Positions 37,678-64,000 of a DNA stretch of 64,000 nucleotides are shown piece by piece; within the stretch, counting starts at the first letter, position 1; the number at the start of each line of letters is the position of its first letter. The translations under genes were made by a program, and so were the position numbers. This DNA comes from an uncultured Candidatus Saccharibacteria bacterium. GTDB lineage: Bacteria > Patescibacteriota > Minisyncoccia > UBA6257 > JACOXY01. The notes under the pieces were generated by a model that saw only the letters and a program-made list of their open reading frames with translations, ran no database searches and was not told the DNA's origin. The stretch lies in assembly GCA_964357615.1 (NCBI GenBank), contig CAYHMC010000002.1:7481-71480 (forward strand), read 5' to 3'.

Positions 37678-39036
37678 ATGTCTTTAGTCAAGAAAACACT
37701 CATCCTTTTTGGTGATTTTATCTTATTTTATGCGTCCTTAACGCTAACGCTTTTTTTACGCTATAATACCCCCCTTACAGCAATTTTACCTGGCGGAGAA
37801 GGAGATTTTATTCAATCATTATATGTTCACTTAATACCTTTTTTACCTCTGCTCTTTGTTTGGGTAATTATTTTCTATTTATTCGACCTATATAGCCCAA
37901 AAACTTTTCGCAATCGTCAGGTGCAGTTCAAGGCTCTTGTAGTTGCTTCTAGTATTAGTTTTTTAACTTCCATAATCGTATTTTACTTATTTCAATCTTT
38001 TTTCCTACTTACACCAAAAACAAATCTAGTTTTATTTGCGTTTATATTTTCAGTTTCTGATTATTTGTTTAGATTGGGAATTGGGAAAATATTAAAAACA
38101 AAAGAATGGCAAACCAAAACTTTTTTTATTGGAAATTCAGAAAGAATTTTCAAAATTTATAATTACCTTAAAGAAAATCCACAGATGGGGTTTAGCTTGT
38201 CAGATTCAAAAAAAGATATTCCAAATCAAAACGACGAAGAACTCCTCAAAGAGCTAAAAAACAAGGGAATCGATTTAGTTGTAATAGATGAAGAAATTTT
38301 AGAAAGTAAAAAAGATGTATTTTTAGGTATACTTTATGAACTCTCCGATCAATCTATCTCCATAACCAATTCATCAGATTTTTATGAAATTATTTTTCAA
38401 AAAGTACCACTACGAGAACTAAAAGATGATTGGTTCGTCGAACACATTGGGGATAGCAGAAAATTCTATGAGGCCGGCAAAGAAGTAATGGATTTTATAT
38501 TAGGCACCATACTTAGTTTTTTGCTTTTACCACTTAGCTTTATTATTGCACTACTTATTAAAGGAACATCACGGGGCCCAATTATATACGAACAAAAACG
38601 AATGGGTAAAAACAACAGACCATTCACTTTATACAAATTTCGCTCAATGAAAAATAATATGGAAGGCAATCTTTGGACAGATAAAAATGATGGACGACTT
38701 ACAAAACTAGGGAAAATTTTAAGATTTACACATCTAGACGAAATACCCCAATTAATTAACATTCTAAAGGGCAATATTTCTTTCTTGGGTCCACGACCTG
38801 AGCGCGTTGAACTCGCCCTTAAATATAGTTCATTGCCTTACTATAAAATGCGCCACATTGTTAAACCAGGATTAACGGGATGGGCGCAAATAAATTTCAA
38901 ACCTTCAGCTTCGCTTGAAGAGGCATATGAAAAATTATGCTATGATATTTACTATATTAAAAACCGGTCCTATTGGTTAGATTTCCTAATTGTTCTAAAA
39001 ACATTAAAATATTTCTTTACCAGTCAAAGTAAATAA
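37678..39036 (+). CDS. Polyprenyl-phosphate glycosyl-1-phosphate transferase (WbaP/WcaJ-like initiating sugar transferase)
   Basis: 452 aa. It has N-terminal TM helices and a C-terminal bacterial sugar-transferase domain (RGPIIYEQKRMGKNNRPFTLYKFRSM...DEIPQLINILKGNISFLGPRP). Confidence 0.85.
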   Translation: MSLVKKTLILFGDFILFYASLTLTLFLRYNTPLTAILPGGEGDFIQSLYVHLIPFLPLLFVWVIIFYLFDLYSPKTFRNRQVQFKALVVASSISFLTSIIVFYLFQSFFLLTPKTNLVLFAFIFSVSDYLFRLGIGKILKTKEWQTKTFFIGNSERIFKIYNYLKENPQMGFSLSDSKKDIPNQNDEELLKELKNKGIDLVVIDEEILESKKDVFLGILYELSDQSISITNSSDFYEIIFQKVPLRELKDDWFVEHIGDSRKFYEAGKEVMDFILGTILSFLLLPLSFIIALLIKGTSRGPIIYEQKRMGKNNRPFTLYKFRSMKNNMEGNLWTDKNDGRLTKLGKILRFTHLDEIPQLINILKGNISFLGPRPERVELALKYSSLPYYKMRHIVKPGLTGWAQINFKPSASLEEAYEKLCYDIYYIKNRSYWLDFLIVLKTLKYFFTSQSK

Positions 39037-39040
39037 GCTT

Positions 39041-40510
39041 ATGATTGCTCGTTTAAAAGAACTTCTTTTTCAAAACCGCTCCATCAAGCAAACGATTGCA
39101 AAAAATATTTTCTGGCTATCTATTGGTGAGGTTGCAAGTCGCTTTATACGCGGAATTATTGTAATTTATGCTGCCAGAATTCTTGGAGCAGCAGAATTTG
39201 GTATATTTTCTTATGCTTTAGGTTTAGCTGGGCTTTTTACAATTTTTTCTGATATGGGAATAATCATGGTACTCACCCGAGAACTAACGCAAAGGCCAAA
39301 TGACAGCAAACGATATTTAGCAACAGCATTTGTAATTAAAATATCTTTATTAATATCAACCTCTTTAGCGATAGCGTTTTTGGCACCTCTATTTTCTTTA
39401 AAAACTGCGATTAAGCTTCTTCCAATAATGGCGGCATTAACATTTTTTGATGGCATAAGAGATTTCTCTCTTGGAATTTTTCGCGCTATAGAAAAAATGG
39501 AACTTCAGGCGTTTGTTACTTTTTTCACAAATGTTGCTATTGTAGGGTCTGCATTAATTGCACTTTGGTACTATGGAACGTCAACATCTCTCGCCATAAC
39601 ATATGTCGTTGGCACTGGAGCTGGAGCGCTTGTAGCAATGTTTATTTTAAGAAAAGAATATCTTGCTATATGGCAAAATTTTGATAAAACACTTATCAAG
39701 AAAATTTTAGGTTATTCTTGGCCATTATTTTTTATGGGGATGTTTAGCACTTTTATGTTAAACACAGACAATGTTTTGCTCGGATATTTTAAAGGAGAAG
39801 AATATGTTGGTTTGTATGCGGCAGCACAAAAAATCATTCAAATACTTTATATATTGCCAGCAATTATAGCCATAGCAATATTTCCACCAATTTCAAGACT
39901 AGTAGCTCAAAACGAAAAAGAAAAAATAAGAAGCCTAATAGAAAAAGGCCTCACTATGGTTTTTATGATTGCTATTCCAATTACTTTGGGTGGAATAATT
40001 CTTGCAAAACCGATAACTTTTCTCCTTTATAAAGCGGAATATTTAAGCTCGGTTTCGACTCTTCAGATATTACTTCTTACTGTGCTAATTATATTTCCAG
40101 GAACAATTATAGGTAATTTAGGACTAGCCTATAATAGACAAAAGGATTTTGCTAAATTTATTGGAATTGCCGCACTGGCAAATGCTATAGGTGATGCAAT
40201 TTTAATTCCAATTTTTGGAATGGCTGGTTCTGCAGTAGTTACAGTAACAGCTCAATTTATCTCTAATGGATTCCAGTGGAGATTGCTAAAGAAAATTAAT
40301 AATTTCTATATACTGAGGCACCTTAAAAAAATAGTAGTAAGCTCACTAGCGATGGGAATTATTTGTGTTACTTTAAATTTTCTTGAAATCAATGTAATTG
40401 CGAACATTGGAATTTCGGCTCTAATTTATTTTGCTATACTCTACATAATAAAAGAATCAACTCTTAAAGAGTTGATTGGGATGATGAAGTTTGTACGAGC
40501 CTCGCAATAA
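39041..40510 (+). CDS. wzx: Polysaccharide flippase (Wzx / MOP superfamily)
   Basis: 489 aa and polytopic, with about 12-14 TM helices. It directly follows the priming transferase. Confidence 0.7.
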   Translation: MIARLKELLFQNRSIKQTIAKNIFWLSIGEVASRFIRGIIVIYAARILGAAEFGIFSYALGLAGLFTIFSDMGIIMVLTRELTQRPNDSKRYLATAFVIKISLLISTSLAIAFLAPLFSLKTAIKLLPIMAALTFFDGIRDFSLGIFRAIEKMELQAFVTFFTNVAIVGSALIALWYYGTSTSLAITYVVGTGAGALVAMFILRKEYLAIWQNFDKTLIKKILGYSWPLFFMGMFSTFMLNTDNVLLGYFKGEEYVGLYAAAQKIIQILYILPAIIAIAIFPPISRLVAQNEKEKIRSLIEKGLTMVFMIAIPITLGGIILAKPITFLLYKAEYLSSVSTLQILLLTVLIIFPGTIIGNLGLAYNRQKDFAKFIGIAALANAIGDAILIPIFGMAGSAVVTVTAQFISNGFQWRLLKKINNFYILRHLKKIVVSSLAMGIICVTLNFLEINVIANIGISALIYFAILYIIKESTLKELIGMMKFVRASQ

Positions 40511-40513
40511 GAC

Positions 40514-41212
40514 CTACCAATGCTCAATTGCTGCTTCCCATCTTTCGATATTGTCGCATGGAAACCAACGATAGTTTTTGGCTTTAAATCCTAAAAGCTT
40601 TCTGGCTTCTGCGAGCTTTGGGAAAATATCTTTCTCAATCATCATAGATTCTTGATCTACCGGGGCGAAATCAAAAACCTCAGGACTCAAAACATAAATC
40701 CCGGAGGATACAAAATCCGATGGGGGATTCTCTGGCTTCTCTAAAAACTCTTTAATATGTGCACCATCCATAAGTGGCACACCGTAAGTTGAAGGGTTAG
40801 CTACCTGAGTAAGTGCAATTGTAGCAACGGGTTGTGATTTGTGAGACTTATGATATTTAATCATTTCTCTAAGGTCAAAATCTTTAAGCTCATCACCATT
40901 TGATAAAATAAAATCTTCTTTGAAGCGTTTTTTTAACAATTTAACACCACCAAAAGTTCCCAAGGGTTTTGCCTCAAGATGTATTTTTATTTTAGGGAGA
41001 ATACCTCTGTATCTCTTCTTCCACCACGAATAATCTTCTTCGTGATCTTTATTTATTATAATTTCTATATCATCAACGCCATTTGCAACAAAAAGCTCAA
41101 TCAAATAATTTAAGATAGGTTTCTTTTTTACGGTGATTAGCGGTTTTGGAATTTCGTGGGTTACTGGTCTAAGCCGAGTTCCAAGACCACCCGCTTGTAT
41201 GATAGCTTTCAT
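40514..41212 (-). CDS. Sugar-1-phosphate nucleotidyltransferase
   Basis: 232 aa. MKAIIQAGGLGTRLRPVTHEIPKPL is the NTP-transferase signature (GGxGTRL). Confidence 0.8.
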   Translation of the reverse strand: MKAIIQAGGLGTRLRPVTHEIPKPLITVKKKPILNYLIELFVANGVDDIEIIINKDHEEDYSWWKKRYRGILPKIKIHLEAKPLGTFGGVKLLKKRFKEDFILSNGDELKDFDLREMIKYHKSHKSQPVATIALTQVANPSTYGVPLMDGAHIKEFLEKPENPPSDFVSSGIYVLSPEVFDFAPVDQESMMIEKDIFPKLAEARKLLGFKAKNYRWFPCDNIERWEAAIEHW

Positions 41213-41270: not shown

Positions 41271-42881
41271 TTGATTAATTCACAAAATAATAAGACAATA
41301 ACTATTATGAAGATTTTAAGCCAAAACAACTGGAAGGATGGATATTTAGACTACCATAGAGGGCCTAATGACTTTAGAATAAAAGTGCTAGCAATTAAAA
41401 ATCTTGAAAAAATTGAGGAGTCTTATGTTGTTCGGCCTAGAAGCGCAAAAATGGTATGGAATTATCTTTTAAAATTTGGACCTACTGCGGTTTTCAGAAA
41501 AATTAAATCACGCATAAGCGAGGAAGCAAGAAATGAGAAATATATTTCTTGCGGTATCGGAGAAGTTATTGAGACGCCCGAAACGGACATGCTACTAACT
41601 GGGGAAAAGGTAGTATTTATATTGCCATCTCACCCAGCCATAGTCGAAAGAATTGTTTTGCCTAAATTTTTATTCACCAACGCTCAAAAGGAATTAATGA
41701 AAATTACTCCCCGAAAAATCAAGCACCTTTTTTTAAATAAAAATAATTCTAATGCGTGGTGGAGTGTTTTAAGAGAATGGAGCCTACATTCAACTAGTAG
41801 CCTTGAAAACGAAGTTTCATCAAAATTACTAGAAAATGCCAAACTAGAAATAGAAGGTGGTAACTGGAGTGAAGCAAAGGAATATTTAACATCAGACAAC
41901 AATTTTGTAAGCGAATTCAAACAAGGTACGCAGTCAAAATCTTTAAGAAAAAAAGCTATTCTTTTTGGTCTAGGTAATTACGCAAAAGTTCAGATTATTC
42001 CAAACATTAAAAAATATATTAATCTCATTGGTATTCACGAGATTGACCCAACTCAAATTCCATCTAATTTTAAAGTTTCTCGAATTGATACATCTCCATC
42101 GCCAAGAGAAAATGAAAATTATGATGCGCTTTTTATTGCAGGATACCACCACACGCACACTCCAATAGCAATCGATGCACTTCAAAAAAATAAATATGCT
42201 GTTGCTGAAAAGCCAATCGTTGTTAACAGAGAACAATTAAATAATCTTGTTAAAGCAATGGACAACAAAAAAAGTAAATTTTTTGCAGGCTTTCATAAGC
42301 GCTACTCTCCATTCAACTCACTAGCTTTAGTAGATTTAAATGTAAAAAACGGTGACCCGATAGATTATCATTGCATTGCGTATGAAGTGCCTTATCCAAA
42401 ATATTTTTGGTACAACTGGCCAATCTCGAAGGGTCCAATAACAGCAAATGGATGTCATTGGATTGATCATTTCCTTTATTTAAATAACTGGAGTAAACCA
42501 GCAAAGCTTGAATTATTTTTAGCCAAAAACATGACTACCAATACTACAATTTATTTAGAAAATGGTGCTATTTTTACAATGACTCTAACAGAACAAGGTA
42601 GTAGTTATATAGGAGTACAAGATTATGTAGAACTCCGAATTAAAAATAAAACTGCGAAAATAATTGACGACTCCAAATATATCTCCGAGGGAGGGGAAGG
42701 GGTTATAAGAAAAAAATCAATTAATAAAATGAAAAACTATCGCTTGATGTATGAAAATATCAGCGAAAGAATCGCGAACGACAAAGAAGGCGACTCTCTT
42801 ATATCAGTCAAAACATCAACAGAAGCAATGCTTGATCTGGAAGATATATACGCCAAAAAATTAAATGAACTAGTTAAATAA
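41271..42881 (+). CDS. Gfo/Idh/MocA-family oxidoreductase with ~220-aa N-terminal extension
   Basis: 536 aa. Rossmann-like ILFGLGNYAKVQIIP and an EKP motif (YAVAEKPIVVNREQLNNLV) are typical of Gfo/Idh/MocA sugar dehydrogenases. The N-terminal third is unrecognised. Confidence 0.5.
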   Translation: MINSQNNKTITIMKILSQNNWKDGYLDYHRGPNDFRIKVLAIKNLEKIEESYVVRPRSAKMVWNYLLKFGPTAVFRKIKSRISEEARNEKYISCGIGEVIETPETDMLLTGEKVVFILPSHPAIVERIVLPKFLFTNAQKELMKITPRKIKHLFLNKNNSNAWWSVLREWSLHSTSSLENEVSSKLLENAKLEIEGGNWSEAKEYLTSDNNFVSEFKQGTQSKSLRKKAILFGLGNYAKVQIIPNIKKYINLIGIHEIDPTQIPSNFKVSRIDTSPSPRENENYDALFIAGYHHTHTPIAIDALQKNKYAVAEKPIVVNREQLNNLVKAMDNKKSKFFAGFHKRYSPFNSLALVDLNVKNGDPIDYHCIAYEVPYPKYFWYNWPISKGPITANGCHWIDHFLYLNNWSKPAKLELFLAKNMTTNTTIYLENGAIFTMTLTEQGSSYIGVQDYVELRIKNKTAKIIDDSKYISEGGEGVIRKKSINKMKNYRLMYENISERIANDKEGDSLISVKTSTEAMLDLEDIYAKKLNELVK

Positions 42882-44057
42882 CTTAGAATAGCCGGCCAAT
42901 TGTTTATCAAATGCATAATAGTCCCTTATAAGCTTTTTGCCATTAGAACTGATGAAATTTCTTTTGCTTTTATCACGCAAGATACCAAGAACTCCATCAG
43001 CGAAATCGACAGTATTATCAGCCACTAATAAGTGTTCGTTACTTTTAGTTCCCTCTATGCCTTCCATGCCAATAGATGTTGTAACAACAGGAATTCCCAT
43101 GACCATTGATTCCAAGATTTTATTCTGTATACCAGCACCAATTAAAATTGGAGCAACAGATAATGCCGCATCTTTGGCGTAAACTTTTATATCATTAACT
43201 TTCCCAGTAACCTCAATTCCATTCACACCATTAAAAACAGAAATGGAATTTGGTGGCTCAGCTCCAATAACAATTAATTTTACATCGGGGATTTCTTTTT
43301 TTATTAATGGATAAATATCTTTAATAAAATAAAGTATGGCATTTTGATTCTGAAATGACCGTAGATTACCAATAAATATAATTTTATTTGCATCATAATC
43401 TTCTTGATTAAAACTAAGAAGTTCATCCGTTACTCCATTACAGAACACGCTTAACTTATTTTGATCTTCAGAGCCAATCTTTTCCTTTAAAAAATCTCTA
43501 TCGACATTTGAAACCAAAACAATAGCATTAAATTTTTTTATACATTCGATTTCATAATTCAAAACTCTTTTTTCTTCTATTCTATAAATCAAACTCATAA
43601 AACTGAATGCTCCTCTTTTTCTGCTTCTACTATAATTTAAGGAAATGGCATCAGTCATTTCAAGAACTTTATTAATTTTACTTGCATTTTTTACATATGG
43701 AGCCATACGAACAAGATGAACCAATACTCCATCATATTTATTTTTTAAAAGTGCATTCTGAACCAATTTTTTCATTTTTTTTGACCTATAATAACTAACT
43801 TGAAGTGGTCCGCCAAGAAAAAATCCGAAGGCTGTACTTAAGATAGATTTCCATTTAGGCAACAGCACAGTAACAATTTCTGAAAATAAATCCTCAGAAA
43901 CTATATTCTTTTTTTCATAATCACTTTCAATAAAAGAAAAAAGTTCAAGTTCATATCCTTCTTTCTTTAGTTTTTTGCAAATATTATATATACGCAACTT
44001 ATCTCCCCCAATAACTGGATATGGCAGTCGAGATGTCAGAACAAGTATCTTTTTCAT
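42870..44057 (-). CDS. Glycosyltransferase family 4 (GT-B)
   Basis: 395 aa. The C-terminal retaining GT-B motif region is ESMVMGIPVVTTSIGMEGIEG. Confidence 0.75.
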   Translation of the reverse strand: MKKILVLTSRLPYPVIGGDKLRIYNICKKLKKEGYELELFSFIESDYEKKNIVSEDLFSEIVTVLLPKWKSILSTAFGFFLGGPLQVSYYRSKKMKKLVQNALLKNKYDGVLVHLVRMAPYVKNASKINKVLEMTDAISLNYSRSRKRGAFSFMSLIYRIEEKRVLNYEIECIKKFNAIVLVSNVDRDFLKEKIGSEDQNKLSVFCNGVTDELLSFNQEDYDANKIIFIGNLRSFQNQNAILYFIKDIYPLIKKEIPDVKLIVIGAEPPNSISVFNGVNGIEVTGKVNDIKVYAKDAALSVAPILIGAGIQNKILESMVMGIPVVTTSIGMEGIEGTKSNEHLLVADNTVDFADGVLGILRDKSKRNFISSNGKKLIRDYYAFDKQLAGYSKLFN

Positions 44058-45064: not shown

Positions 45065-45076
45065 GAAATCAAGGCA

Positions 45077-45468: not shown

Positions 45469-45500
45469 ACCACCATAATACGGTGGTTATTTTTATACTT
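45469..45500 (+). terminator. Rho-independent terminator
   Basis: accacc-ATAATAC-ggtggt followed by TATTTTTATACTT. Confidence 0.4.
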
Positions 45501-58533: not shown

Positions 58534-59745
58534 CTAAACATTTTTAGGCAAAAAATTCCACATATCTACAAATTGAATATTTGGATAATCCTTTGGATTT
58601 ATTTCGCGATATTCTGGGTGTGGTGTCGCCAAAATTACAATATTTGAGTTTTTTAAGACATGGTCTAATGACACAAAAGATGCGTCACTCATATAAGGAT
58701 CTGTACAAAGAACACTTCTACATTCTACATGAGCAATTTTTCTTAATTTGAAAGATAAAGAATCTCTATGGTCGTCACTTTCCGCTTTGTATGCCATACC
58801 CAAAATACCAATTGTTTTTTCTTTTAACTCGGCCGAATGTTCGCGTTTCAATTTACCAATTAAATGATTTACCAATCCCTCATTCACCAACATTGCTGCG
58901 TGACCTAGCCAAAAATTGTTGTTCGTAAAAGCGGCTAATTGCATAGTATCTTTTAATAAACATGGACCAGCAGCAAATCCAGGCGAAGGTAAATCTTGTG
59001 TTCTCGGATAATTGTGCTTCATGGCTTTTTCAATACTGCTATATTCTAACCCATGTGATTCAGCAATCATAAAAAACTGATTGGCTACGGCAAATCTTAT
59101 ATAACGCCAAGAATTTGTAAATAATTTTGCAAGCTCTGCTTCCATTGCAGAAACAGCAACAATATCAGACTTAGTTGATTTTTGAAATAACTTTGTCACC
59201 TCGTTTCGAGTTTCGTCATCAAAGGCAGAAATTATTTGTGGCAGAACTTTTAAATCTTCGATTGCGCGACCCTGCAAAATTCTTTCAGGGCAAAATGAAA
59301 GTTTTACTTTTTTATTTTTTGATTCAAAATATTGCTGAACTTTTTCAGTGGTACCAGGATAAACTGTACTCCTTAAAATTATAATCTGGCCGTCTCTAAA
59401 GTGATTGATGTATTTATCAATTACCCTTGTAATTCCCCCAAATTGCGGACTAAGATATTCGTCAATTGGAGTTCCAATAACAATTACAACAAACTTAGAA
59501 TCTGCAATTGATTCTGGGGAACTCGAGGTAACAAGCGAACCACTCTTTATAGCAGTTCCAAGCGCCTCATCTCCATCCTTCTCCTTAAATGGGAATTTGC
59601 CAGACTGAATTTTATTCAAGGCTTCTTGATTTACATCAAATAAAACTGTTTTTACTCCGGCATTTGCGAATACTACACCCAAAGGAAGGCCCACATGACC
59701 AGCCCCACCAACAATACAAAGTTCATATTTCGTTTGATTTGTCAT
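58534..59745 (-). CDS. Nucleotide-sugar dehydrogenase (UDP-glucose/GDP-mannose dehydrogenase family)
   Basis: LCIVGGAGHVGLPLGVVFA is the N-terminal NAD-binding motif. The length is typical. The start was trimmed to MTNQTKYE. Confidence 0.8.
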   Translation of the reverse strand: MTNQTKYELCIVGGAGHVGLPLGVVFANAGVKTVLFDVNQEALNKIQSGKFPFKEKDGDEALGTAIKSGSLVTSSSPESIADSKFVVIVIGTPIDEYLSPQFGGITRVIDKYINHFRDGQIIILRSTVYPGTTEKVQQYFESKNKKVKLSFCPERILQGRAIEDLKVLPQIISAFDDETRNEVTKLFQKSTKSDIVAVSAMEAELAKLFTNSWRYIRFAVANQFFMIAESHGLEYSSIEKAMKHNYPRTQDLPSPGFAAGPCLLKDTMQLAAFTNNNFWLGHAAMLVNEGLVNHLIGKLKREHSAELKEKTIGILGMAYKAESDDHRDSLSFKLRKIAHVECRSVLCTDPYMSDASFVSLDHVLKNSNIVILATPHPEYREINPKDYPNIQFVDMWNFLPKNV

Positions 59746-59794
59746 GGTATTGATTCTAATTCTTAGAATCAAAAAAGTCAAAAAATATTTTTAG

Positions 59795-60550
59795 CTACTT
59801 TCTAAGTACGGTACTGGGGCCTTTTTTAAAATAAGTTGTTTCAAGTGCATAAAAAAACCATCTTGCATAACGAGGTAGCCATTTTCTAAATTTAAACCTA
59901 CTTTCGCCCTTCTTTCTCATAATCCATCTTGCTGGAACCTCTGCCACAGACCATCCAAGCCTATGACATTTTACCAATAATTCTATAGCGTAAGTAAATC
60001 CCTCTGAAGATTCAATTTTAACAGTATCTATAACCCGCCTAGAGAATAATCGCCAAGCATATGTTGCGTCTGTCGCTGGAACACCAATGAAATGATGCAA
60101 AACGAATGACGCTACGCGAACCACAAATGATTTTAATCTAGGACCACCGCTTATTTCCCCGCCCTTCATAAGTCTACTTGCGACCACCACATCACAACCC
60201 TCTTTATATTTTATAAACATCTCATCTATTATAATTGCGTTATTTGCCTCATCAGAACCAAAAGTAAGAATTGCTTCTGCAGTTGTAGAATCAAAACCCG
60301 TTGTTATCGCGCTATGAACCCCCCTACCTTTATTTTTAACAAAAACAATATCAAATTTATATTTTTTCCCTTTTAATGCTTGCAGTGTATTATCATCATC
60401 AAAATCATAGCAAATAAATACTTTAATTCGAGTTTTCACTTCGTTCTCAAAAGCTTGAAATAAATCAAGAATATTCTCTCCTTCGTTATAAACTGGTATA
60501 ACAATATCGAGAACTGAAGTTTTTGATTCTTTGTTTAAATTAGATTCCAT
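59795..60550 (-). CDS. GT2 polyprenol-phosphate glycosyltransferase (DPM-synthase/GtrB/ArnC-like)
   Basis: 251 aa. It has VLDIVIPVYNEGENI and a DxD. The length and the single C-terminal hydrophobic region fit polyprenyl-P sugar synthases. Confidence 0.7.
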   Translation of the reverse strand: MESNLNKESKTSVLDIVIPVYNEGENILDLFQAFENEVKTRIKVFICYDFDDDNTLQALKGKKYKFDIVFVKNKGRGVHSAITTGFDSTTAEAILTFGSDEANNAIIIDEMFIKYKEGCDVVVASRLMKGGEISGGPRLKSFVVRVASFVLHHFIGVPATDATYAWRLFSRRVIDTVKIESSEGFTYAIELLVKCHRLGWSVAEVPARWIMRKKGESRFKFRKWLPRYARWFFYALETTYFKKGPSTVLRK

Positions 60551-60568: not shown

Positions 60569-61726
60569 TTACTTTTTAATACTATTGAACTGCTGCTCGC
60601 AGGCCACAATAACTTCTTCTATTTTTATGGCTTCCAAACTTTCTACTTCGCACTTTATATCCGAATAGTCACACTCTAATTGATTTTTATATAAGCAAAT
60701 ATTTTTTTTACCATACGGGAACCAACTTCCAAATATATTTCTAATACTAAAAAGTGCAACTATCGGAATACCGTGTGCAGCTGCAATATGCATTGGCCCA
60801 GTATCATTTGTTAGATAAAGATCTACATTTTTAATTGCAATTATGCTTTCTTTAATAGACTTATCTGAAAAATTCAAACCAGAGACATTAGTACCTTTAA
60901 TAATTTCATTAATTTTTTCAAAATCAGCCGCGCCACTAAAATAAATCACACCAAATTTATGCTTTACACTGAGCGCATTTATTACTTTTAAAAAATTATC
61001 CTTAGGCCATCTTTGTCCCTCTGTTTTTCCACCCATACAAACACCCAAAAGTAATTTATTTTGGTTTTTAAAACTTTCGATTTCTTTTTGAATGTTTTTC
61101 GACTCAGCATAATTTGGAAACTCATAAACAATTTTATCAGATTTAATTCCGTTATTTTCTAAAATTTTTAATAAAGCGACTGACTCGGTATCTTTTGTAG
61201 TGAAATCTACTTGAGTTTTTTTAAATAACTGAGAAGTTCTGAGACTGAATTGAAATGCATGTTTAGAACCAATAAATTTTGAAAATAATTCATTTCTTAT
61301 CATCGTTCTAAAAAAAGCTAAATCATCGGGCAATTGAATAAATAAGTCATATTTTTTAGCGCGTAATTTTTTGATTAGCTTAATAATCAGACTAAAAGAC
61401 GAGACCTCATCGCTATAGTAAGTAATAATTTCATCGAAATAAGGAGCGCCCTCTAAAAAATCCCTTGCCCCAATTGACCCGCGATTACCCGGAGAAGTTA
61501 GTAGTGTAATCTTGCTATTGGGAAACTTCTTTTTAATAGCTGTAAACGAAGGTATTGCGCAAACAATATCGCCAATATTACCAATTTTATAAATAATAAT
61601 ATTTTTAGGATATTTTATTTTAAAAGGAAATAATATTTTATTGAAACAAAATAAAATTAAATTGAGCGCTTTAAGCCAAATAGAAACAACTAGCAGTTTT
61701 AATGATTCTAGAAACGAGGGCTTCAT
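60569..61726 (-). CDS. Glycosyltransferase family 9 (heptosyltransferase-like)
   Basis: 385 aa. The C-terminal LYLTNDTGPMHIAAAHGIPIVALFS matches the GT9 motif (D.G..HLAAA.G.P.V.LFG). Confidence 0.7.
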   Translation of the reverse strand: MKPSFLESLKLLVVSIWLKALNLILFCFNKILFPFKIKYPKNIIIYKIGNIGDIVCAIPSFTAIKKKFPNSKITLLTSPGNRGSIGARDFLEGAPYFDEIITYYSDEVSSFSLIIKLIKKLRAKKYDLFIQLPDDLAFFRTMIRNELFSKFIGSKHAFQFSLRTSQLFKKTQVDFTTKDTESVALLKILENNGIKSDKIVYEFPNYAESKNIQKEIESFKNQNKLLLGVCMGGKTEGQRWPKDNFLKVINALSVKHKFGVIYFSGAADFEKINEIIKGTNVSGLNFSDKSIKESIIAIKNVDLYLTNDTGPMHIAAAHGIPIVALFSIRNIFGSWFPYGKKNICLYKNQLECDYSDIKCEVESLEAIKIEEVIVACEQQFNSIKK

Positions 61727-61732
61727 TTTAAT

Positions 61733-62989
61733 TTAACGAGGTTTTTTTAATCTACAAAAACAATCAAGCATCATAATTATATCAATTGGAAAGCGATAGC
61801 GCGGGTCGGCATTTGCAATAACAAAAGGCAAGAAATAAAGAAAAATTACTAAAAACATCAGGAGGTTGTCTCTATCTAAAAAATTTTTGCGAGTTCTAAA
61901 TACGATAAAAAGCCAAACAAAGATTGGTGTCGCCATTAATATTTTAACAATTCTTTTTAGCCCTTCTGTAGTTATCCATGAAAAATCGGGAACTTGGTGG
62001 TATCCTGGCCTAAACAAGGTAAATATTTTTATTCCGGTTAACTTTATGTATTCAATTGGATGTGCTTTTATAAAATCAAATGCGAGCTGTTTGTAAGTTT
62101 CGGGTGGAAAAATTAGTCGCTCTTCAAATTTATTAATTGCCGTATATCCCCTAGCACCTAGAGCATCTCTCAAAGAATTTTCACCGCTAAAATCTGAAAG
62201 TAAGTACTTGCTAGAATATTCATTAGAACCTGCAAATAGATTATAATAGCCGTGATTTGGAAAATAAAAAGGTTTTTGCTTAACTGCAGTATTAATAATT
62301 ACAAAAACAAACAATGAGATAAATAAAAATAATAAAGATTGATTAAAATAGTTTCTTGATATGCTTTCACTTTCTTTATTTTTTATTCTGTTATTTTTAT
62401 TAAAAATTAAAACTCCATATTGAAATATTTTTGGAAAATAAACAATTAGCAATACAGGCAATACAAGCAATATGGTATTCATTCGAACTACAAAAAGCAG
62501 ACCGGATATTACACCCAAAACCAAAATGCCAAGAAAATTTCTTTCTCGTTCCACATACAGACAAGCTACAAGCAAGCCAAGTAATAGCAAAACTGTAATA
62601 TTGCCATCATGAACTCTCCATATATTAAGAAAAAGAACTGGGTGAATGGCAGTAATTAAAATACCAAAAAATAATTTATGACCAGTAACGCCTCTAAATG
62701 TCAAAAGCAAAAGAGCACACAATAAAATAAATACGTAGATTAGAGACTGACAAACTGGAATTAAATTTATGCCACCATGCGCGATGCATAACCCCAAAAA
62801 ACCAGAATATCCAATTGGCATAAAGTTAGATGTTATGGCTCCCACTTCTGCAAATTCATTGGCGTCATTATACAATAATGCCACAAAGAAAGAACTATCT
62901 ATGTCTTGCTTTAAAGACGCAAGGACAAAAACTACAACCAGAATTACACCAATTAGCATCAACACCTTTGGAATCGTAAGTTGGCTCAT
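61733..62989 (-). CDS. Polytopic membrane protein: GT-C-fold glycosyltransferase (ArnT/PMT-like) or Wzy-like polymerase
   Basis: 418 aa with about 10 TM helices. There is an acidic motif in the first extracytoplasmic loop (YNDANEFAEVG). It sits next to the polyprenol-P sugar synthase and GT9 genes. Confidence 0.5.
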   Translation of the reverse strand: MSQLTIPKVLMLIGVILVVVFVLASLKQDIDSSFFVALLYNDANEFAEVGAITSNFMPIGYSGFLGLCIAHGGINLIPVCQSLIYVFILLCALLLLTFRGVTGHKLFFGILITAIHPVLFLNIWRVHDGNITVLLLLGLLVACLYVERERNFLGILVLGVISGLLFVVRMNTILLVLPVLLIVYFPKIFQYGVLIFNKNNRIKNKESESISRNYFNQSLLFLFISLFVFVIINTAVKQKPFYFPNHGYYNLFAGSNEYSSKYLLSDFSGENSLRDALGARGYTAINKFEERLIFPPETYKQLAFDFIKAHPIEYIKLTGIKIFTLFRPGYHQVPDFSWITTEGLKRIVKILMATPIFVWLFIVFRTRKNFLDRDNLLMFLVIFLYFLPFVIANADPRYRFPIDIIMMLDCFCRLKKPR

Positions 62990-62996
62990 TATATAT

Positions 62997-64000
62997 TTAT
63001 ATTACTCGTGGAGTTGGTAGCGGAACTATAAATTTACCCTTAAATCCTTTTTCTTTTAGCTTTGACATTAGCTCCTCTGCAATATTCCACGAAAATATAA
63101 TTGCATACTCTGGTTGATCTTCAAATAGCTTGGACTCTTCTAAGACAGGAATTAGAGTTCCGGGAACATATTTATTAATTTTATGAGAACCTTTAATTTC
63201 TAATGTACAATCAACAATGCCCTCATCTATGCCAACATAATTAATTAAAGTTGTACCCCTTGATGGCGCTCCGATTCCATAAACTCGACCACCTTCTTTT
63301 TTTATATCACAAAGTATTTTAGACAGTTCGAGTTTTGCCATAACAACCCTAGAGTGAAATGCTAATAAATTTTCTTTATTAATTACTATATCCTTCTCTA
63401 ATTCTAATAAAGAAAGTACGCTTTCTCTTACTTTATACTTACCTTTTTTTGCAGCGTAAACTCTAATTGAACCTGCATGTGTCGGAATTTGTTTAGCGTG
63501 TATAACTTCAAGTCCATGCATTTCTAAGAGATGTTTCAAGCTATGAAGGGAATAATATCTTAGATGTTCGTGATAAATAGTATCAAATTGATTCATTTGA
63601 ATCAGCGGTAATAAATAATGTGATTCGGTTATAAATACTCCATCATCTTTTAAAATTTCTATGACCGAATCTAATACCTCATTTACATTATCAACATGAG
63701 CAAAAACATTTGTTGCCGTTATAATTTTAGATTCACCATATTCTTTTTTAATAGACAAAGCCGCATCCTTTGTAAAATAATCTAGTATTGTAGGAATGCC
63801 ACGCTCGAGTGCAATTTTACCAATATCTTCTGGTGTTATACCTAAAATTTTATGCTTATCTTTAAAGTTACTTAGAAGATTTCCATCATTTGACCCTATA
63901 TCCAAAACCAAGTCATCTGATTTTAATTCGAACATCGATACACATTCATTATAAAGCTCTGCAAAATTATCTCTAAGTACCTTGGTTGTGCTAGATGTAT
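62997..64000 (-). CDS. NDP-hexose C-methyltransferase (TylC3/NovU-like), N-terminus beyond right window edge
   Basis: The frame is open to the window end (the track ORF starts at the internal Met 63935). Motifs: LDIGSNDGNLL, ATNVFAHVDNV, FDTIYHEHLRYYSL, VYGIGAPSRGTTLINY, AIIFSWNIAEEL and GKFIVPLPTP. These match the sugar C-methyltransferase family architecture (Methyltransf plus C-terminal C-MT domain). Confidence 0.65.
   Translation of the reverse strand, partial: TSSTTKVLRDNFAELYNECVSMFELKSDDLVLDIGSNDGNLLSNFKDKHKILGITPEDIGKIALERGIPTILDYFTKDAALSIKKEYGESKIITATNVFAHVDNVNEVLDSVIEILKDDGVFITESHYLLPLIQMNQFDTIYHEHLRYYSLHSLKHLLEMHGLEVIHAKQIPTHAGSIRVYAAKKGKYKVRESVLSLLELEKDIVINKENLLAFHSRVVMAKLELSKILCDIKKEGGRVYGIGAPSRGTTLINYVGIDEGIVDCTLEIKGSHKINKYVPGTLIPVLEESKLFEDQPEYAIIFSWNIAEELMSKLKEKGFKGKFIVPLPTPRVI

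What the first reader, a model, noticed from the sequence alone, without database searches (positions are those of the whole stretch)
37678..64000. Surface-glycan island encoding a full NDP-deoxysugar tailoring set (C-methyl, O-methyl, carbamoyl, amino), suggesting a noviose-like decorated sugar
About 26 kb hold one nucleotidyltransferase (40514-41212), an NDP-sugar dehydratase-type SDR (57505-58518), a DegT aminotransferase (52842-53954), an epimerase/reductase SDR (54031-54990), a TylC3/NovU-like sugar C-methyltransferase (62997-64000), an FkbM O-methyltransferase (51953-52837) and a NodU/NovN-type carbamoyltransferase (45896-47728). They sit with a WbaP-like priming transferase, a Wzx flippase and 8+ GTs. 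C-methylation plus O-methylation plus O-carbamoylation of one deoxysugar is the hallmark of noviose biosynthesis in aminocoumarins (NovU/NovP/NovN) and of a few rare branched-chain O-antigen sugars. Finding all three tailoring classes in a cell-envelope glycan locus of an AT-rich, apparently reduced-genome bacterium is unusual. It predicts a heavily modified branched-chain sugar on the cell surface. The island runs off the right edge, so more genes may follow.
Basis: partly seen in the sequence, partly recalled or inferred. Interest (0 to 1): 0.72.

Follow-up and report, generated by a model that had tools for sequence, protein, structure and literature searches.

The report
Modular surface-glycan island of a Patescibacterium
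This is a roughly 30 kb cell-surface sugar-polymer gene cluster in an ultra-small groundwater bacterium whose methyl-, carbamoyl- and amino-adding enzymes sit in separately inherited gene blocks rather than building one antibiotic-like sugar, and its C-methylating enzyme belongs to a widespread, undescribed cassette that probably attaches a branched sugar from outside the membrane.

Summary
Both of its refutation tests came out in its favour. The 62997 ORF is a full TylC3/TcaB9-type sugar C-methyltransferase, and the carbamoyltransferase groups with NovN, GdmN and TobZ. The host is a Patescibacterium (CPR). A 99.3%-identical contig shows four more island genes past 64000.

The noviose-like reading is not supported. 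The C-methyltransferase sits in a different tight operon from FkbM and the carbamoyltransferase. Relatives of the carbamoyltransferase (80 loci) keep a GT4-GT2 partner block and never carry a C-methyltransferase within 10 kb. The O-methyltransferase is FkbM-type, not TylF-type. No RmlC-type epimerase or clear 4,6-dehydratase is present.

The C-methyltransferase travels in a conserved cassette found in CPR bacteria, a Woesearchaeote and unclassified metagenome contigs. The cassette holds an NDP-sugar 6-dehydrogenase, a UXS-like SDR, an RmlD-like reductase, a DPMS/ArnC-like GT2 and a GT-C-fold membrane protein.

My best model is an Arn-like side-branch pathway. It makes a C-methylated sugar, probably from a uronate-derived 4-keto-pentose. 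The sugar is loaded on polyprenyl phosphate and attached outside the membrane. This is inference from synteny and homology. I rate it a new variant of a known kind, of moderate interest.

The parts
37678..39036 (+). WbaP/WcaJ-like polyprenyl-phosphate hexose-1-phosphate transferase (priming enzyme)
   Evidence: Pfam Bac_transf 1e-59. NCBIfam EPS_sugtrans 321.6 bits, above its cut-off of 295.55. Orthologues of 41-48% identity lie next to Wzx in related CPR loci.
39041..40510 (+). Wzx-type flippase
   Evidence: Pfam Polysacc_synt 2e-37 and Polysacc_synt_3 3e-28.
40514..41212 (-). Sugar-1-phosphate nucleotidylyltransferase, substrate unassigned
   Evidence: Pfam NTP_transferase 8e-39. All NCBIfam equivalogs fall far below their cut-offs.
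41271..42881 (+). 536-aa protein with a GFO/IDH/MocA NAD-binding domain (residues 231-341) and an unassigned N-terminal half
   Evidence: Pfam GFO_IDH_MocA 2e-8. Orthologues of 44-46% identity occur in L004, L005, L006, L016 and L022.
42870..44057 (-). GT4 glycosyltransferase
   Evidence: Pfam Glyco_trans_1_4 5e-25.
44069..45064 (-). DUF362 protein, role unknown
   Evidence: Pfam DUF362 1e-44.
45896..47728 (-). O-carbamoyltransferase of the NodU/CmcH/NovN/TobZ type. It is the last gene of the DegT-to-CarbT operon, and its likely true start is near 47686.
   Evidence: Pfam Carbam_trans_N 1e-60 plus Carbam_trans_C 6e-71. PDB matches: NovN 3e-88, GdmN 6e-85, TobZ 3e-72. In 80 related loci the recurrent neighbours are the GT2 and GT4 upstream of it.
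47822..48685 (-). GT2 glycosyltransferase, conserved partner of the carbamoyltransferase
   Evidence: Pfam Glycos_transf_2 3e-17. Present in 22 of 80 carbamoyltransferase loci at a median 46% identity.
48703..49884 (-). GT4 glycosyltransferase, part of the GT4-GT2-CarbT block
   Evidence: Pfam Glycos_transf_1 4e-43. A GT4 hit occurs in 37 of 80 carbamoyltransferase loci at a median 30% identity. In the closest CPR loci it is 45-52% identical and adjacent to the GT2-CarbT pair.
49884..51035 (-). GT4 glycosyltransferase
   Evidence: Pfam Glycos_transf_1 5e-30.
51051..51971 (-). GT2 glycosyltransferase, overlapping the FkbM gene by 19 nt
   Evidence: Pfam Glycos_transf_2 7e-29. A 66%-identical orthologue lies next to FkbM and DegT in L005.
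51953..52837 (-). FkbM-family methyltransferase (not TylF/NovP type)
   Evidence: Pfam Methyltransf_21 1e-21 with a secondary V_cholerae_RfbT hit. NCBIfam fkbM_fam 108 bits, above its cut-off of 37.7.
52842..53954 (-). DegT-type PLP sugar aminotransferase, most like the C-4 aminotransferases LegC, PseC and ArnB
   Evidence: Pfam DegT_DnrJ_EryC1 2e-119. NCBIfam LegC family 333 bits and PseC 280 bits, both below cut-off.
54031..54990 (+). Extended SDR (SDR1), either 4,6-dehydratase-like or 4-epimerase-like. It is on the opposite strand and separates the two big operons.
   Evidence: Pfam Epimerase 4e-48. NCBIfam dTDP-glucose 4,6-dehydratase 154 bits and LegB 152 bits, both below cut-off. The best PDB matches are GalE-like enzymes.
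55034..57541 (-). GT4 glycosyltransferase fused to a roughly 440-aa C-terminal domain of unknown family
   Evidence: Pfam Glycos_transf_1 9e-25 on residues 229-382 only. The two halves are separate genes in L092.
57505..58518 (-). Extended SDR (SDR2), proposed to be an NDP-uronate 4-oxidase/decarboxylase that supplies the 4-keto sugar
   Evidence: It has S-N-E where RmlB has T-D-E. In the family profile, human UXS1 (3e-46) is the best match among enzymes that share its active-site residues, with Glu, Tyr/Lys and the TRAF arginine aligned. The overall top hit is a GDP-sugar 4-epimerase (1e-47) that lacks them. It follows the 6-dehydrogenase here and in L092, and both genes are in the same cassette in L007, L090, L091, L093 and L094.
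58534..59781 (-). NDP-sugar 6-dehydrogenase
   Evidence: The three UDPG_MGDP_dh domains match in Pfam. NCBIfam NDP-sugDHase 266 bits, above its cut-off of 189.8. The closest equivalogs are UDP-ManNAc dehydrogenases, below cut-off.
59795..60550 (-). Short GT2 of the polyprenyl-phosphate sugar synthase type (DPMS/ArnC/PpgS-like). It is a paralogue of the GT2 just upstream of the C-MT.
   Evidence: Pfam Glycos_transf_2 2e-13. NCBIfam sub-threshold hits to PgfS, PpgS, AglJ and ArnC. The paralogue matches Pyrococcus DPMS at 6e-22 and ArnC at 4e-12.
60569..61726 (-). GT9-family glycosyltransferase (heptosyltransferase family)
   Evidence: Pfam Glyco_transf_9 2e-19. NCBIfam heptosyltransferase models all fall below cut-off.
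61733..62989 (-). Polytopic membrane protein with a GT-C fold, proposed to be the extracytoplasmic transferase for the lipid-linked sugar
   Evidence: No Pfam hit. AlphaFold2 model with pLDDT 78 and pTM 0.82. The top 26 Foldseek PDB hits are all GT-C-fold proteins, including Pmt1/2, ArnT, PglB, STT3, AftD and Emb. E45 is invariant and D42 near-invariant in the first loop. Homologues co-occur with C-MT homologues.
62997..64000 (-). TylC3/TcaB9-type sugar C-methyltransferase, with its N-terminal 79 residues cut off by the window end (full gene is window-equivalent 62997-64238)
   Evidence: Pfam Methyltransf_23 plus Methyltransf_14. The full 413-aa protein adds Methyltransf_13. PDB matches: MtmC 5e-69, TcaB9 2e-58, KijD1 6e-52, all full length. 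It is 32% identical to MtmC and TcaB9, with four Cys and the Tyr/His/Tyr/Glu/His set conserved.

Best explanation
The region is a roughly 30 kb modular surface-glycan locus of a Patescibacterium. It is assembled from at least three separately inherited blocks.

1. Backbone block. A Wzx-dependent backbone is primed by the WbaP-like transferase and built by GT4 and GT2 enzymes. Its operon (DegT, FkbM, GT2, GT4, GT4, GT2, carbamoyltransferase) also supplies an amino sugar, a methyl group and an O-carbamoyl group. The carbamoyl group most likely goes on a residue added by the adjacent GT2/GT4 pair.

2. Side-branch operon. A second ten-gene operon reads cupin, KijD10-like/RmlD-like fusion, GT2, C-MT, GT-C, GT9, GT2, 6-dehydrogenase, SDR2, GT4-fusion. 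I read it as an Arn-like side-branch pathway with these steps:
- An NDP-sugar is oxidised at C-6.
- SDR2 oxidises C-4 and decarboxylates, giving an NDP-4-keto-pentose.
- The TylC3-type enzyme C-methylates next to the ketone.
- The RmlD-like domain reduces the ketone.
- A DPMS/ArnC-like GT2 loads the branched sugar onto polyprenyl phosphate.
- After flipping, the GT-C protein attaches it to an acceptor on the outer face of the membrane.

3. Accessory genes. These are the nucleotidyltransferase, the 536-aa GFO protein, DUF362 and SDR1.

What is shown: gene identities, operon layout, the GT-C fold and the synteny patterns. What is inferred: every substrate, the decarboxylation step, the site of methylation, the acceptor, and which residues receive the methyl and carbamoyl groups.
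For: Gene families were assigned. The two tight operons, with gaps of about 24 nt or less or overlaps, are separated by the + strand SDR1 (coordinates). A terminator-like hairpin lies at 55011-55025 between the convergent genes.

C-MT:
- It gives full-length matches to MtmC, TcaB9 and KijD1.
- The catalytic and zinc residues are conserved.

C-MT partners in 10 related loci:
- A short GT2 lies directly upstream or within one gene in all 10.
- An RmlD-like reductase is present in 9 of 10. The exception, L007, has DegT plus an acetyltransferase in the operon instead. That pattern is what a 4-keto intermediate resolved by reduction or transamination would give.
- The 6-dehydrogenase plus an SDR2-like protein are present in L007, L090, L091, L092, L093 and L094 as well as the window.
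- L090, L091, L093 and L094 share the same five-gene order: dehydrogenase, RmlD-like, GT2, SDR, C-MT.
- A GT-C protein (PMT_2 or the 61733 family) is present in L006, L007, L009, L090, L091, L092 and L093.
- Single polypeptides joining GT2 and C-MT exist (P0096, P0070).

SDR2 family: the profile matches human UXS1 at 3e-46, with Glu, Tyr/Lys and the TRAF arginine aligned. The slightly better-scoring GDP-sugar 4-epimerase 8rdg lacks these residues.

GT2: it matches DPMS at 6e-22 and ArnC at 4e-12.

GT-C fold.

Carbamoyltransferase: in 80 related loci the conserved neighbours are GT2_47822 (22 loci) and GT4_48703 (37 loci), plus WbaP and Wzx. No locus has a C-MT.

Precedent: a decarboxylase-derived UDP-4-keto-pentose is the proposed precursor of a C-branched sugar in the EvdS6/eurekanate system (PMC10338323).
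Against: - No enzyme activity or glycan structure is known.
- SDR2 scores almost as well against a putative 4,6-dehydratase (2hun, 4e-44) and slightly better against a GDP-sugar 4-epimerase (8rdg, 1e-47). The window protein has S-N-E rather than the S-S-E of the cassette orthologues.
- Four CPR-type loci (L004, L005, L006, L009) carry the C-MT with the GFO-RmlD fusion and cupin but show no 6-dehydrogenase or SDR2 in the DNA fetched. There the keto sugar must come from elsewhere. The same could be true here.
- No flippase (GtrA or ArnE/F type) and no Wzy polymerase was identified.
- The carbamoyltransferase test used 10 kb flanks, whereas the window distance to the C-MT is 15 kb. That test therefore excludes close linkage, not co-occurrence in one locus. 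L005 does have both genes within 10 kb.
- Both GT2 paralogues lack the C-terminal membrane helices of ArnC and GtrB.
Confidence: 0.5

Rival explanations
1. One NDP-6-deoxyhexose is C-methylated, O-methylated and O-carbamoylated, as in the noviose route with NovU, NovP and NovN. This would give a single heavily decorated branched sugar on the surface.
For: All three enzyme classes are present in one locus. The carbamoyltransferase's best solved relative is NovN itself (3e-88). The C-MT belongs to the family that includes NovU by domain architecture. L005, another Patescibacterium, also has C-MT, FkbM and the carbamoyltransferase within about 10 kb.
Against: - The C-MT lies in a different operon from FkbM and the carbamoyltransferase.
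- None of 80 carbamoyltransferase loci has a C-MT within 10 kb, and FkbM-like hits occur in only 2 of 80 at 25% identity.
- Among the C-MT loci fetched only L005 shows the carbamoyltransferase.
- The O-MT is FkbM (PF05050). NovP is TylF-family by my recollection of the literature.
- No dTDP_sugar_isom (NovW-type) protein and no clear 4,6-dehydratase is in the window or the extension.
- The carbamoyltransferase's similarity to GdmN and TobZ, which act on non-noviose substrates, is nearly as high as to NovN.
Confidence: 0.07
2. Classical branched deoxyhexose. The C-MT methylates C-3 of a dTDP- or GDP-4-keto-6-deoxyhexose made by a 4,6-dehydratase (SDR1 at 54031, or an unlinked rmlB or gmd). The KijD10-like, RmlD-like and cupin proteins act as ketoreductases and an epimerase, as in the mycarose, digitoxose or virenose routes. 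The 6-dehydrogenase and SDR2 would make an unrelated uronic acid or pentose.
For: - All characterised relatives (MtmC, TcaB9, KijD1) act on dTDP-4-keto-6-deoxy sugars (names).
- The fusion's N-terminal half is closest to the sugar 3-ketoreductase KijD10 (1e-42) and its C-terminal half to RmlD.
- Coxiella CBU_0691 is a precedent for a TylC3-type enzyme in an LPS O-antigen (PMC3539893).
- Four CPR loci have the C-MT without a nearby 6-dehydrogenase or SDR2.
- SDR1 has sub-threshold similarity to dTDP-glucose 4,6-dehydratase and LegB.
Against: - The five-gene cassettes of L090, L091, L093 and L094 contain the 6-dehydrogenase and the UXS-like SDR. They have no nucleotidyltransferase, no other dehydratase candidate, and a single GT.
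- No 2,3-dehydratase is present to feed a KijD10-type 3-ketoreductase.
- SDR1 has S-A-E instead of T-D-E (sequence) and its best PDB matches are GalE-like.
Confidence: 0.28
3. The keto group is made by the GFO/IDH/MocA domain. It would act as an NDP-sugar or lipid-linked-sugar dehydrogenase, in the manner of WbpB/WlbA or DprE1. The C-MT would methylate next to that ketone and the fused RmlD-like domain would reduce it. The chemistry might occur on the polyprenyl-phosphate-linked sugar.
For: - The GFO-RmlD fusion is always adjacent to GT2 and C-MT in the CPR-type loci (L004, L005, L006, L009, L092 and the window).
- The fusion shows sub-threshold similarity to UDP-GlcNAc 3-dehydrogenase and other sugar 3-dehydrogenases.
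- GT2-C-MT fusion proteins exist.
Against: The type A cassettes lack any GFO domain yet keep the C-MT at 68-70% identity. The closest solved relative of the GFO half is a ketoreductase, not a dehydrogenase. No TylC3-family enzyme is known to act on lipid-linked sugars.
Confidence: 0.1

Closest known systems
Arn (PmrHFIJKLM) pathway for 4-amino-4-deoxy-L-arabinose on lipid A: Ugd, ArnA decarboxylase, ArnB, ArnC, ArnT
   Same: Both have the following:
- an NDP-sugar 6-dehydrogenase followed by a UXS/ArnA-like SDR
- a step that resolves a 4-keto intermediate
- an ArnC/DPMS-like GT2
- a GT-C-fold membrane transferase
All of these are in one operon.
   Different: - The 4-keto intermediate is proposed to be C-methylated and then reduced, rather than transaminated and formylated.
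- No formyltransferase, deformylase or ArnE/F flippase was found.
- The GT2 is short (247-251 aa) and lacks membrane helices.
- The host is a Patescibacterium with no evidence of lipid A.
- The 6-dehydrogenase is closer to UDP-ManNAc/GlcNAc dehydrogenases than to Ugd.
TylC3/EryBIII/TcaB9/KijD1/MtmC NDP-hexose C-3 methyltransferases of antibiotic deoxysugar pathways, and NovU (C-5) of noviose
   Same: The three-domain architecture is the same (Zn ribbon, class I SAM domain, Methyltransf_14). Alignments are full length and the Cys4 and Tyr/His/Tyr/Glu/His residues are conserved.
   Different: - It is only 32% identical to MtmC and TcaB9.
- It belongs to a discrete clade: one 50%-identity representative scores 718 bits and the next 526.
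- Members of that clade are 67-77% identical across CPR bacteria and a Woesearchaeote.
- The genomic partners are a uronate route and a lipid carrier, not dTDP-glucose 4,6- and 2,3-dehydratases.
Coxiella burnetii virenose pathway (CBU_0691, a TylCIII-like enzyme in the LPS O-antigen locus)
   Same: A TylC3-type C-MT sits inside a cell-surface glycan locus and is predicted to give a C-methyl branched sugar (PMC3539893).
   Different: The Coxiella model starts from a 4,6-dehydratase product (GDP- or dTDP-4-keto-6-deoxyhexose) and uses Leloir transfer. No lipid-phosphate/GT-C route or uronate decarboxylation has been proposed for it.
NodU/NolO, CmcH, NovN, GdmN and TobZ O-carbamoyltransferases
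   Same: Both domains are present (Kae1-like N-terminal, YrdC-like C-terminal). Full-length matches of 3e-72 to 3e-88 were found.
   Different: NCBIfam NodU scores 162 bits against a cut-off of 1000, so it is not a NodU equivalog. The conserved partners here are a GT2 and a GT4 of a Wzx-dependent glycan locus, not antibiotic or Nod-factor genes.
EvdS6/eurekanate branch of everninomicin biosynthesis
   Same: A UDP-4-keto-pentose released by a UXS-like decarboxylase is the proposed substrate for C-branching (PMC10338323).
   Different: Branching there is a thiamine-dependent acetyl transfer at C-4 in a secondary-metabolite cluster. Here it would be a SAM-dependent methyl transfer in a surface-glycan locus.
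Three-component extracytoplasmic glycosylation systems: GtrA/B/C, CsbB/GtcA/YfhO, PpgS/Rv3779, PgfS/PgfM
   Same: A GT2 polyprenyl-phosphate sugar synthase is paired with a polytopic GT-C transferase.
   Different: Those systems deliver ordinary Glc, GlcNAc or GalNAc. Here the pair is embedded with sugar-tailoring enzymes, including a C-MT, and no GtrA-type flippase was seen.

Membership tests
TylC3/TcaB9-type NDP-sugar C-methyltransferase | N-terminal four-cysteine zinc domain (Methyltransf_13) | tested here: met
   PF08421 is precomputed for the full 413-aa protein. CxxC...CxxC aligns with TcaB9. This part lies beyond the window end.
TylC3/TcaB9-type NDP-sugar C-methyltransferase | Class I SAM-binding domain followed by the C-terminal Methyltransf_14 domain | tested here: met
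   Methyltransf_23 6e-17 and Methyltransf_14 5e-39, covering 1-160 of 160 profile positions.
TylC3/TcaB9-type NDP-sugar C-methyltransferase | Active-site residues probed in TcaB9 (Tyr76, His181, Tyr222, Glu224, His225; numbering recalled from the literature, PDB chain numbering is +2) | tested here: met
   All five align with identical residues: query Y78, H181, Y222, E224, H225.
TylC3/TcaB9-type NDP-sugar C-methyltransferase | SAM-dependent C-methylation of an NDP-4-keto sugar, and the position methylated (C-3 or C-5) | not testable with these tools
   This needs an enzyme assay. No NovU, CloU or Coxiella sequence was available for a phylogeny.
NodU/CmcH/NovN/TobZ O-carbamoyltransferase | Kae1/ASKHA-like N-terminal domain plus YrdC-like C-terminal domain in one chain, as opposed to the HypF or TsaC/Sua5 architecture | tested here: met
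   Carbam_trans_N covers 2-345 of 346 positions and Carbam_trans_C 1-169 of 170. PDB hits are only NovN, a 'Carbamoyltransferase' entry (7xb6), GdmN and TobZ.
NodU/CmcH/NovN/TobZ O-carbamoyltransferase | Equivalog-level identity with a named member | tested here: not met
   NCBIfam NodU scores 162 bits against a cut-off of 1000. The protein is a family member, not an orthologue of a characterised enzyme.
Noviose-type pathway (NovT, NovW, NovU, NovS, then NovP and NovN) | dTDP-glucose 4,6-dehydratase in the locus | tested here: inconclusive
   Two extended SDRs score 132-154 bits against TIGR01181, whose cut-off is 365. One has S-N-E and the other S-A-E at the T-D-E position.
Noviose-type pathway (NovT, NovW, NovU, NovS, then NovP and NovN) | RmlC-type 3,5-epimerase (dTDP_sugar_isom) | tested here: not met
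   No PF00908 hit on any island ORF of 130 aa or more or on the extension. The 140-aa cupin resembles Cap5F and WxcM cupins only weakly.
Noviose-type pathway (NovT, NovW, NovU, NovS, then NovP and NovN) | TylF-family O-methyltransferase (NovP type) | tested here: not met
   The only O-MT candidate is FkbM/PF05050. NovP's assignment to the TylF family is recalled from the literature.
Noviose-type pathway (NovT, NovW, NovU, NovS, then NovP and NovN) | Tailoring genes linked and co-inherited as one unit | tested here: not met
   The genes lie in different operons. None of 80 carbamoyltransferase loci has a C-MT within 10 kb. Of the related C-MT loci, only L005 shows the carbamoyltransferase.
Arn-like lipid-carrier sugar pathway | NDP-sugar 6-dehydrogenase | tested here: met
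   TIGR03026 scores 266 bits against a cut-off of 189.8.
Arn-like lipid-carrier sugar pathway | SDR that oxidises C-4 and decarboxylates the uronate, releasing a 4-keto-pentose | tested here: inconclusive
   The family profile matches UXS1 at 3e-46, with Glu and the TRAF Arg aligned. However, a 4-epimerase and a putative dehydratase score similarly. The NCBIfam U4kpxs model scores 73.5 bits against a cut-off of 294.
Arn-like lipid-carrier sugar pathway | GT2 that transfers the sugar to polyprenyl phosphate | tested here: inconclusive
   The best solved relatives are DPMS (6e-22), ArnC (4e-12) and GtrB (2e-6). All NCBIfam hits are below cut-off, and the protein has no C-terminal membrane helices.
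Arn-like lipid-carrier sugar pathway | GT-C-fold transferase with an acidic residue in the first external loop | tested here: met
   The top 26 Foldseek hits are GT-C-fold proteins with probability about 1 for the leading hits, although E-values are only 3e-3 to 0.5. E45 is invariant and D42 near-invariant.
Arn-like lipid-carrier sugar pathway | Flippase for the lipid-linked monosaccharide (ArnE/F or GtrA type) | tested here: not met
   No such small membrane protein was recognised among ORFs of 130 aa or more. Smaller ORFs were not examined.
Wzx/Wzy-dependent polysaccharide locus | Priming phosphoglycosyltransferase and Wzx flippase | tested here: met
Wzx/Wzy-dependent polysaccharide locus | Wzy polymerase and chain-length regulator | tested here: not met
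   None was recognised in 37.6-64 kb or in the 4 kb extension. The only polytopic protein there without a Pfam family models as GT-C.

The most novel reading that the evidence does not exclude
The C-methyltransferase marks an undescribed sugar pathway. The pathway is widely distributed across Patescibacteria, at least one DPANN archaeon and unclassified metagenomic (including marine) lineages. In it, an NDP-uronic acid is decarboxylated to a 4-keto-pentose. A TylC3-type enzyme then C-methylates that intermediate. The product would be a branched C-methyl pentose or, if C-5 is the site, a 6-deoxyhexose made without a 4,6-dehydratase. The ketone is then reduced or transaminated. The product is delivered to the cell surface through a polyprenyl-phosphate carrier and a GT-C transferase. 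That would be the first lipid-phosphate-linked branched-chain sugar donor, and a shared surface decoration of ultra-small episymbiotic bacteria and archaea.
Probability: 0.35. Interest if true: 0.72.

Novelty: new variant of a known kind. Interest (0 to 1): 0.55.

Why it matters
Patescibacteria and DPANN archaea live attached to host cells, and almost nothing is known about the chemistry of their surfaces. This locus shows that a CPR bacterium invests about 30 kb in a decorated glycan.

The comparison points to a compact cassette: 6-dehydrogenase, UXS-like SDR, C-methyltransferase, reductase, lipid-phosphate GT2 and GT-C. Its C-methyltransferase stays 67-77% identical across very distant lineages.

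If the proposed chemistry is right, three things follow:
- It adds a new entry route (a uronate-derived 4-keto-pentose) to branched-sugar biosynthesis.
- It adds a new class of lipid-linked sugar donor.
- It gives four or five soluble enzymes that could be tested in vitro without culturing the organism.

The result also cautions against reading co-located tailoring genes as acting on one sugar.

Tried and rejected
An alignment query would have reached further.
- Exact look-ups of the carbamoyltransferase and the GT9 found nothing, probably because the called start codons differ from my ORF starts.
- The 137,240-base source contig is on record but could not be fetched. The extension therefore rests on a 99.3%-identical 6.7 kb contig.
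- The listing of cluster members gave no names, so taxonomy was taken from the named relatives of GyrB.
- tRNA and Rfam scans of the window found nothing.
- The promoter scan was uninformative: 49 sites found against 45.8 expected.
- NCBIfam gave no hit for the C-MT and no equivalog-level hit for any sugar-nucleotide enzyme.
- Literature searches for the C-MT in Patescibacteria, for Methyltransf_14, and for C-MT with undecaprenyl phosphate and GT-C found nothing relevant.
- I first suspected a non-CPR host because of the PrkA, DUF444 and SpoVR genes. GyrB says otherwise.
- I considered the 61733 membrane protein as a Wzy or ligase. The fold search favoured GT-C.
Its motif, the profile match and its constant pairing with a 6-dehydrogenase argue for a decarboxylase, though not conclusively.

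Full report
**1. The observation**

The window is AT-rich, at 30-39% GC overall and 31-36% across the island. From 37678 to the right edge it holds 21 substantial ORFs with almost no non-coding space.
- a WbaP-like priming transferase
- a Wzx flippase
- a nucleotidyltransferase
- a two-domain carbamoyltransferase
- an FkbM methyltransferase
- a DegT aminotransferase
- two extended SDRs
- a methyltransferase with the C-terminal Methyltransf_14 domain of sugar C-methyltransferases

Eight Leloir glycosyltransferases are present. The last ORF has no upstream stop and is cut by the window end. Left of 37678 the genes are housekeeping: RNase III, NusB, DnaE, ThrRS, MiaA, GatB, GyrB, NusG, L11 and thioredoxin reductase. 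The left boundary is therefore real.

**2. Host and right-hand extension**

All named relatives of the window's GyrB (65-79% identity) are Patescibacteria. They include Liptonbacteria, Paceibacterota, Minisyncoccia, Zambryskibacteria and Harrisonbacteria.

A 6.7 kb contig from Hainich groundwater well H41 (0.1 um fraction) overlaps the window end, with 20 mismatches in 2755 bases. It shows what follows 64000:
- the rest of the C-methyltransferase (413 aa, with the zinc-ribbon domain)
- a 247-aa GT2
- a 603-aa fusion
- a 140-aa cupin
- then an oppositely oriented P-loop gene

The fusion's N-terminal half is closest to the sugar 3-ketoreductase KijD10 (1e-42). Its C-terminal half is RmlD-like. 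The cupin resembles the Cap5F and WxcM cupins only weakly. The island is therefore about 29.6 kb, from 37.7 to about 67.2 kb in window-equivalent coordinates.

**3.

The full C-methyltransferase aligns end to end with MtmC (5e-69), TcaB9 (2e-58) and KijD1 (6e-52). It is 32% identical to MtmC and TcaB9. It keeps the four cysteines and the Tyr/His/Tyr/Glu/His set that was mutated in the TcaB9 structures (the residue roles are from my memory of that work).

The carbamoyltransferase matches NovN (3e-88), GdmN and TobZ over both domains. It has none of the HypF or TsaC architecture. Neither refutation condition is met.

**4. Why one noviose-like sugar is unlikely**

(a) Operon layout. One tight operon runs DegT, FkbM, GT2, GT4, GT4, GT2, carbamoyltransferase (53954 down to 45896). 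Most gaps in it are 17 nt or less, two gene pairs overlap, and only the gap before the carbamoyltransferase is larger. A second tight operon runs cupin, fusion, GT2, C-MT, GT-C, GT9, GT2, 6-dehydrogenase, SDR2, GT4-fusion (about 67.2 down to 55.0 kb). SDR1 on the + strand lies between them, and a terminator-like hairpin lies at 55011-55025.

(b) Inheritance of the carbamoyltransferase. I fetched 80 metagenomic loci with relatives of 44-75% identity and searched them with all island proteins.
- The recurrent neighbours are the GT2 at 47822 (22 loci, median 46% identity) and the GT4 at 48703 (37 loci). In the closest loci WbaP and Wzx are also nearby.
- No locus has a C-methyltransferase.
- Only two have an FkbM-like hit, at 25% identity.
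- Caveat: the flanks were 10 kb and the window distance to the C-MT is 15 kb.

(c) Inheritance of the C-methyltransferase. Among ten loci with relatives of 68-77% identity, only L005 shows the carbamoyltransferase. FkbM-like genes appear in L005 and L092.

(d) Missing parts. The O-methyltransferase is FkbM, not the TylF family to which NovP belongs (the latter from memory). No RmlC-type epimerase is present, and neither SDR is a clear 4,6-dehydratase.

**5. What the C-methyltransferase travels with**

Its clade is large and discrete. The best 120 database proteins are 67-77% identical. They come from Patescibacteria, Jorgensenbacteria, a Woesearchaeote and marine metagenomes. In a library of 50%-identity representatives, one representative scores 718 bits and the next 526.

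In ten loci the constant partners are as follows:
- A short GT2 lies immediately upstream or within one gene. Its best solved relatives are Pyrococcus dolichol-phosphate mannose synthase (6e-22), ArnC (4e-12) and GtrB. Two database proteins are GT2-C-MT fusions.
- An RmlD-like reductase is present in nine of ten loci.
- A GT-C protein is present in seven of ten, either PMT_2 or the family of the 61733 membrane protein.

I modelled the 61733 protein from 27 homologues (pLDDT 78, pTM 0.82). The top 26 Foldseek hits in the PDB are all GT-C-fold proteins. They include Pmt1/2, ArnT, PglB, STT3, AftD, EmbB and ALG9. Probabilities are about 1 for the leading hits, although E-values are weak. The first loop has an invariant Glu and a near-invariant Asp.

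**6. Where the keto sugar comes from**

Four loci (L090, L091, L093, L094) share the same five-gene order: NDP-sugar 6-dehydrogenase, RmlD-like, GT2, about 330-aa SDR, C-MT. In two of them a PMT_2 gene follows within one gene.

The Woesearchaeote locus L007 has 6-dehydrogenase, acetyltransferase, DegT, GT2, SDR, C-MT, PMT_2 and no RmlD-like gene. That is the pattern expected if a 4-keto intermediate is resolved by either reduction or transamination.

The window and L092 carry orthologues of both the 6-dehydrogenase (67% identical between them) and the SDR (75%) in the same operon as the C-MT.

A profile of this SDR family has human UDP-glucuronate decarboxylase as its best match among enzymes that share its active-site residues (3e-46). 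The catalytic Glu, the Tyr/Lys pair and the arginine of the TRAF motif all align. The slightly higher-scoring GDP-sugar 4-epimerase 8rdg (1e-47) lacks the Glu and that motif. The window protein reads S-N-E at the position where RmlB reads T-D-E.

A 6-dehydrogenase and a 4,6-dehydratase cannot act on the same sugar. The simplest single-sugar reading is therefore oxidation at C-6, then C-4 oxidation with decarboxylation to a 4-keto-pentose. The later steps would be C-methylation, ketoreduction, transfer to polyprenyl phosphate and GT-C transfer. This is the logic of the Arn pathway, with a methyltransferase in place of ArnB.

A decarboxylase-derived UDP-4-keto-pentose has already been proposed as the precursor of another C-branched sugar, eurekanate (PMC10338323).

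**7. Limits of that model**

- Four CPR loci (L004, L005, L006, L009) have the C-MT with the fusion and the cupin but no 6-dehydrogenase or SDR in the DNA fetched. L004 and L005 instead carry an AsnB-type amidotransferase. A different keto-sugar source must exist there and could also operate here.
- The SDR family's scores against a putative dehydratase and an epimerase are close to the UXS score.
- The role of the KijD10-like half and the cupin is unexplained in the minimal scheme.
- The window has two GT2 paralogues, so two lipid-linked sugars may be made.
- No flippase, Wzy or acceptor was identified.
- The site of methylation cannot be predicted.

**8. The other block**

The DegT is most like the C-4 aminotransferases LegC, PseC and ArnB. 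It is divergently paired with SDR1. GT2_51051, FkbM and DegT are conserved as a block in L005 at 54-70% identity.

FkbM enzymes in O-antigen loci commonly methylate a glycan residue. A secondary Pfam hit here is to Vibrio cholerae RfbT. I infer that the methyl and carbamoyl groups decorate backbone residues, but nothing here shows which.

**9. Comparison with what is known, and verdict**

Every individual family is known, and the locus as a whole is an ordinary kind of thing: a Wzx-dependent glycan cluster. What I could not find described is a TylC3-type C-methyltransferase embedded in an Arn-like cassette of uronate route, lipid carrier and GT-C, conserved across CPR bacteria and at least one DPANN archaeon. 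Searches found nothing, though the library is limited.

Its headline interpretation is not supported, and the alternative rests on synteny and homology only. It is still clearly above ordinary, because the cassette is testable in vitro and bears on the unknown surface chemistry of ultra-small symbionts.

Noticed in passing
window 13023-17896 (- strand): A SpoVR, DUF444 (YeaH) and PrkA three-gene set, with very strong Pfam matches (1e-126 to 1e-145), sits in what GyrB says is a Patescibacteria genome. I did not expect this stress or sporulation-associated trio in a CPR bacterium.
   Followed up: no
window 18002-20317 (- strand): A 771-aa ORF has no Pfam hit at 1e-5. It lies between PrkA and GatB.
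   Followed up: no
window 22763-24040 (- strand): A protein carries a prepilin-type N-terminal methylation motif fused to a Laminin_G_3 (concanavalin-like) domain. It may be a pilus-tip lectin or adhesin.
   Followed up: no
window 55034-57541 (- strand); L092 12095-14552: The GT4 is fused to a roughly 440-aa C-terminal domain with no Pfam family. In L092 the two halves are separate adjacent genes, 45% and 40% identical.
   Followed up: partly
L090 11771-13972; L091 10957-12800; L093 9547-11022; L009 3197-4627 and 20272 onward: B12-binding radical-SAM genes lie next to C-MT cassettes in several lineages, some with a PterinBD-DUF4346 domain. They may be further methylases. None is in the window.
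   Followed up: no
P0096 (656 aa) and P0070 (548 aa, partial): These single polypeptides join the short GT2 and the C-methyltransferase in gene order. The two genes overlap by 4 nt in L001, so some of these could be frameshift artefacts.
   Followed up: partly
L004 3693-5600; L005 3380-5296: An AsnB-type glutamine amidotransferase lies between Wzx and the GFO-RmlD fusion in two CPR loci. This hints at amidated uronic acids there.
   Followed up: no
window 45041-45454 (+ strand): A 137-aa ORF with a lipoprotein-like N-terminus (…LSFGC…) and no Pfam hit sits in the 830-base gap after the carbamoyltransferase. It is flanked by hairpin terminator-like sites at 45469-45487 and 45853-45874.
   Followed up: no
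window 32551-33459 (+ strand): A 302-aa ORF matches only the C-terminal end of the EPSP_synthase (MurA/AroA) fold. It may be a truncated or divergent gene.
   Followed up: no
C-MT loci L004-L009 and L090-L094: There are two locus types. Type A has the 6-dehydrogenase plus a UXS-like SDR and no GFO or cupin (L007, L090, L091, L093, L094). Type B has the GFO-RmlD fusion plus cupin, with no 6-dehydrogenase or SDR in the DNA fetched (L004, L005, L006, L009). The window and L092 combine both.
   Followed up: partly
window 60569-61726 (- strand); L091 16018-17031: A GT9 (heptosyltransferase-family) gene sits inside the C-MT operon of a bacterium not expected to make LPS. A GT9 gene is also near the cassette in L091.
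   Followed up: no
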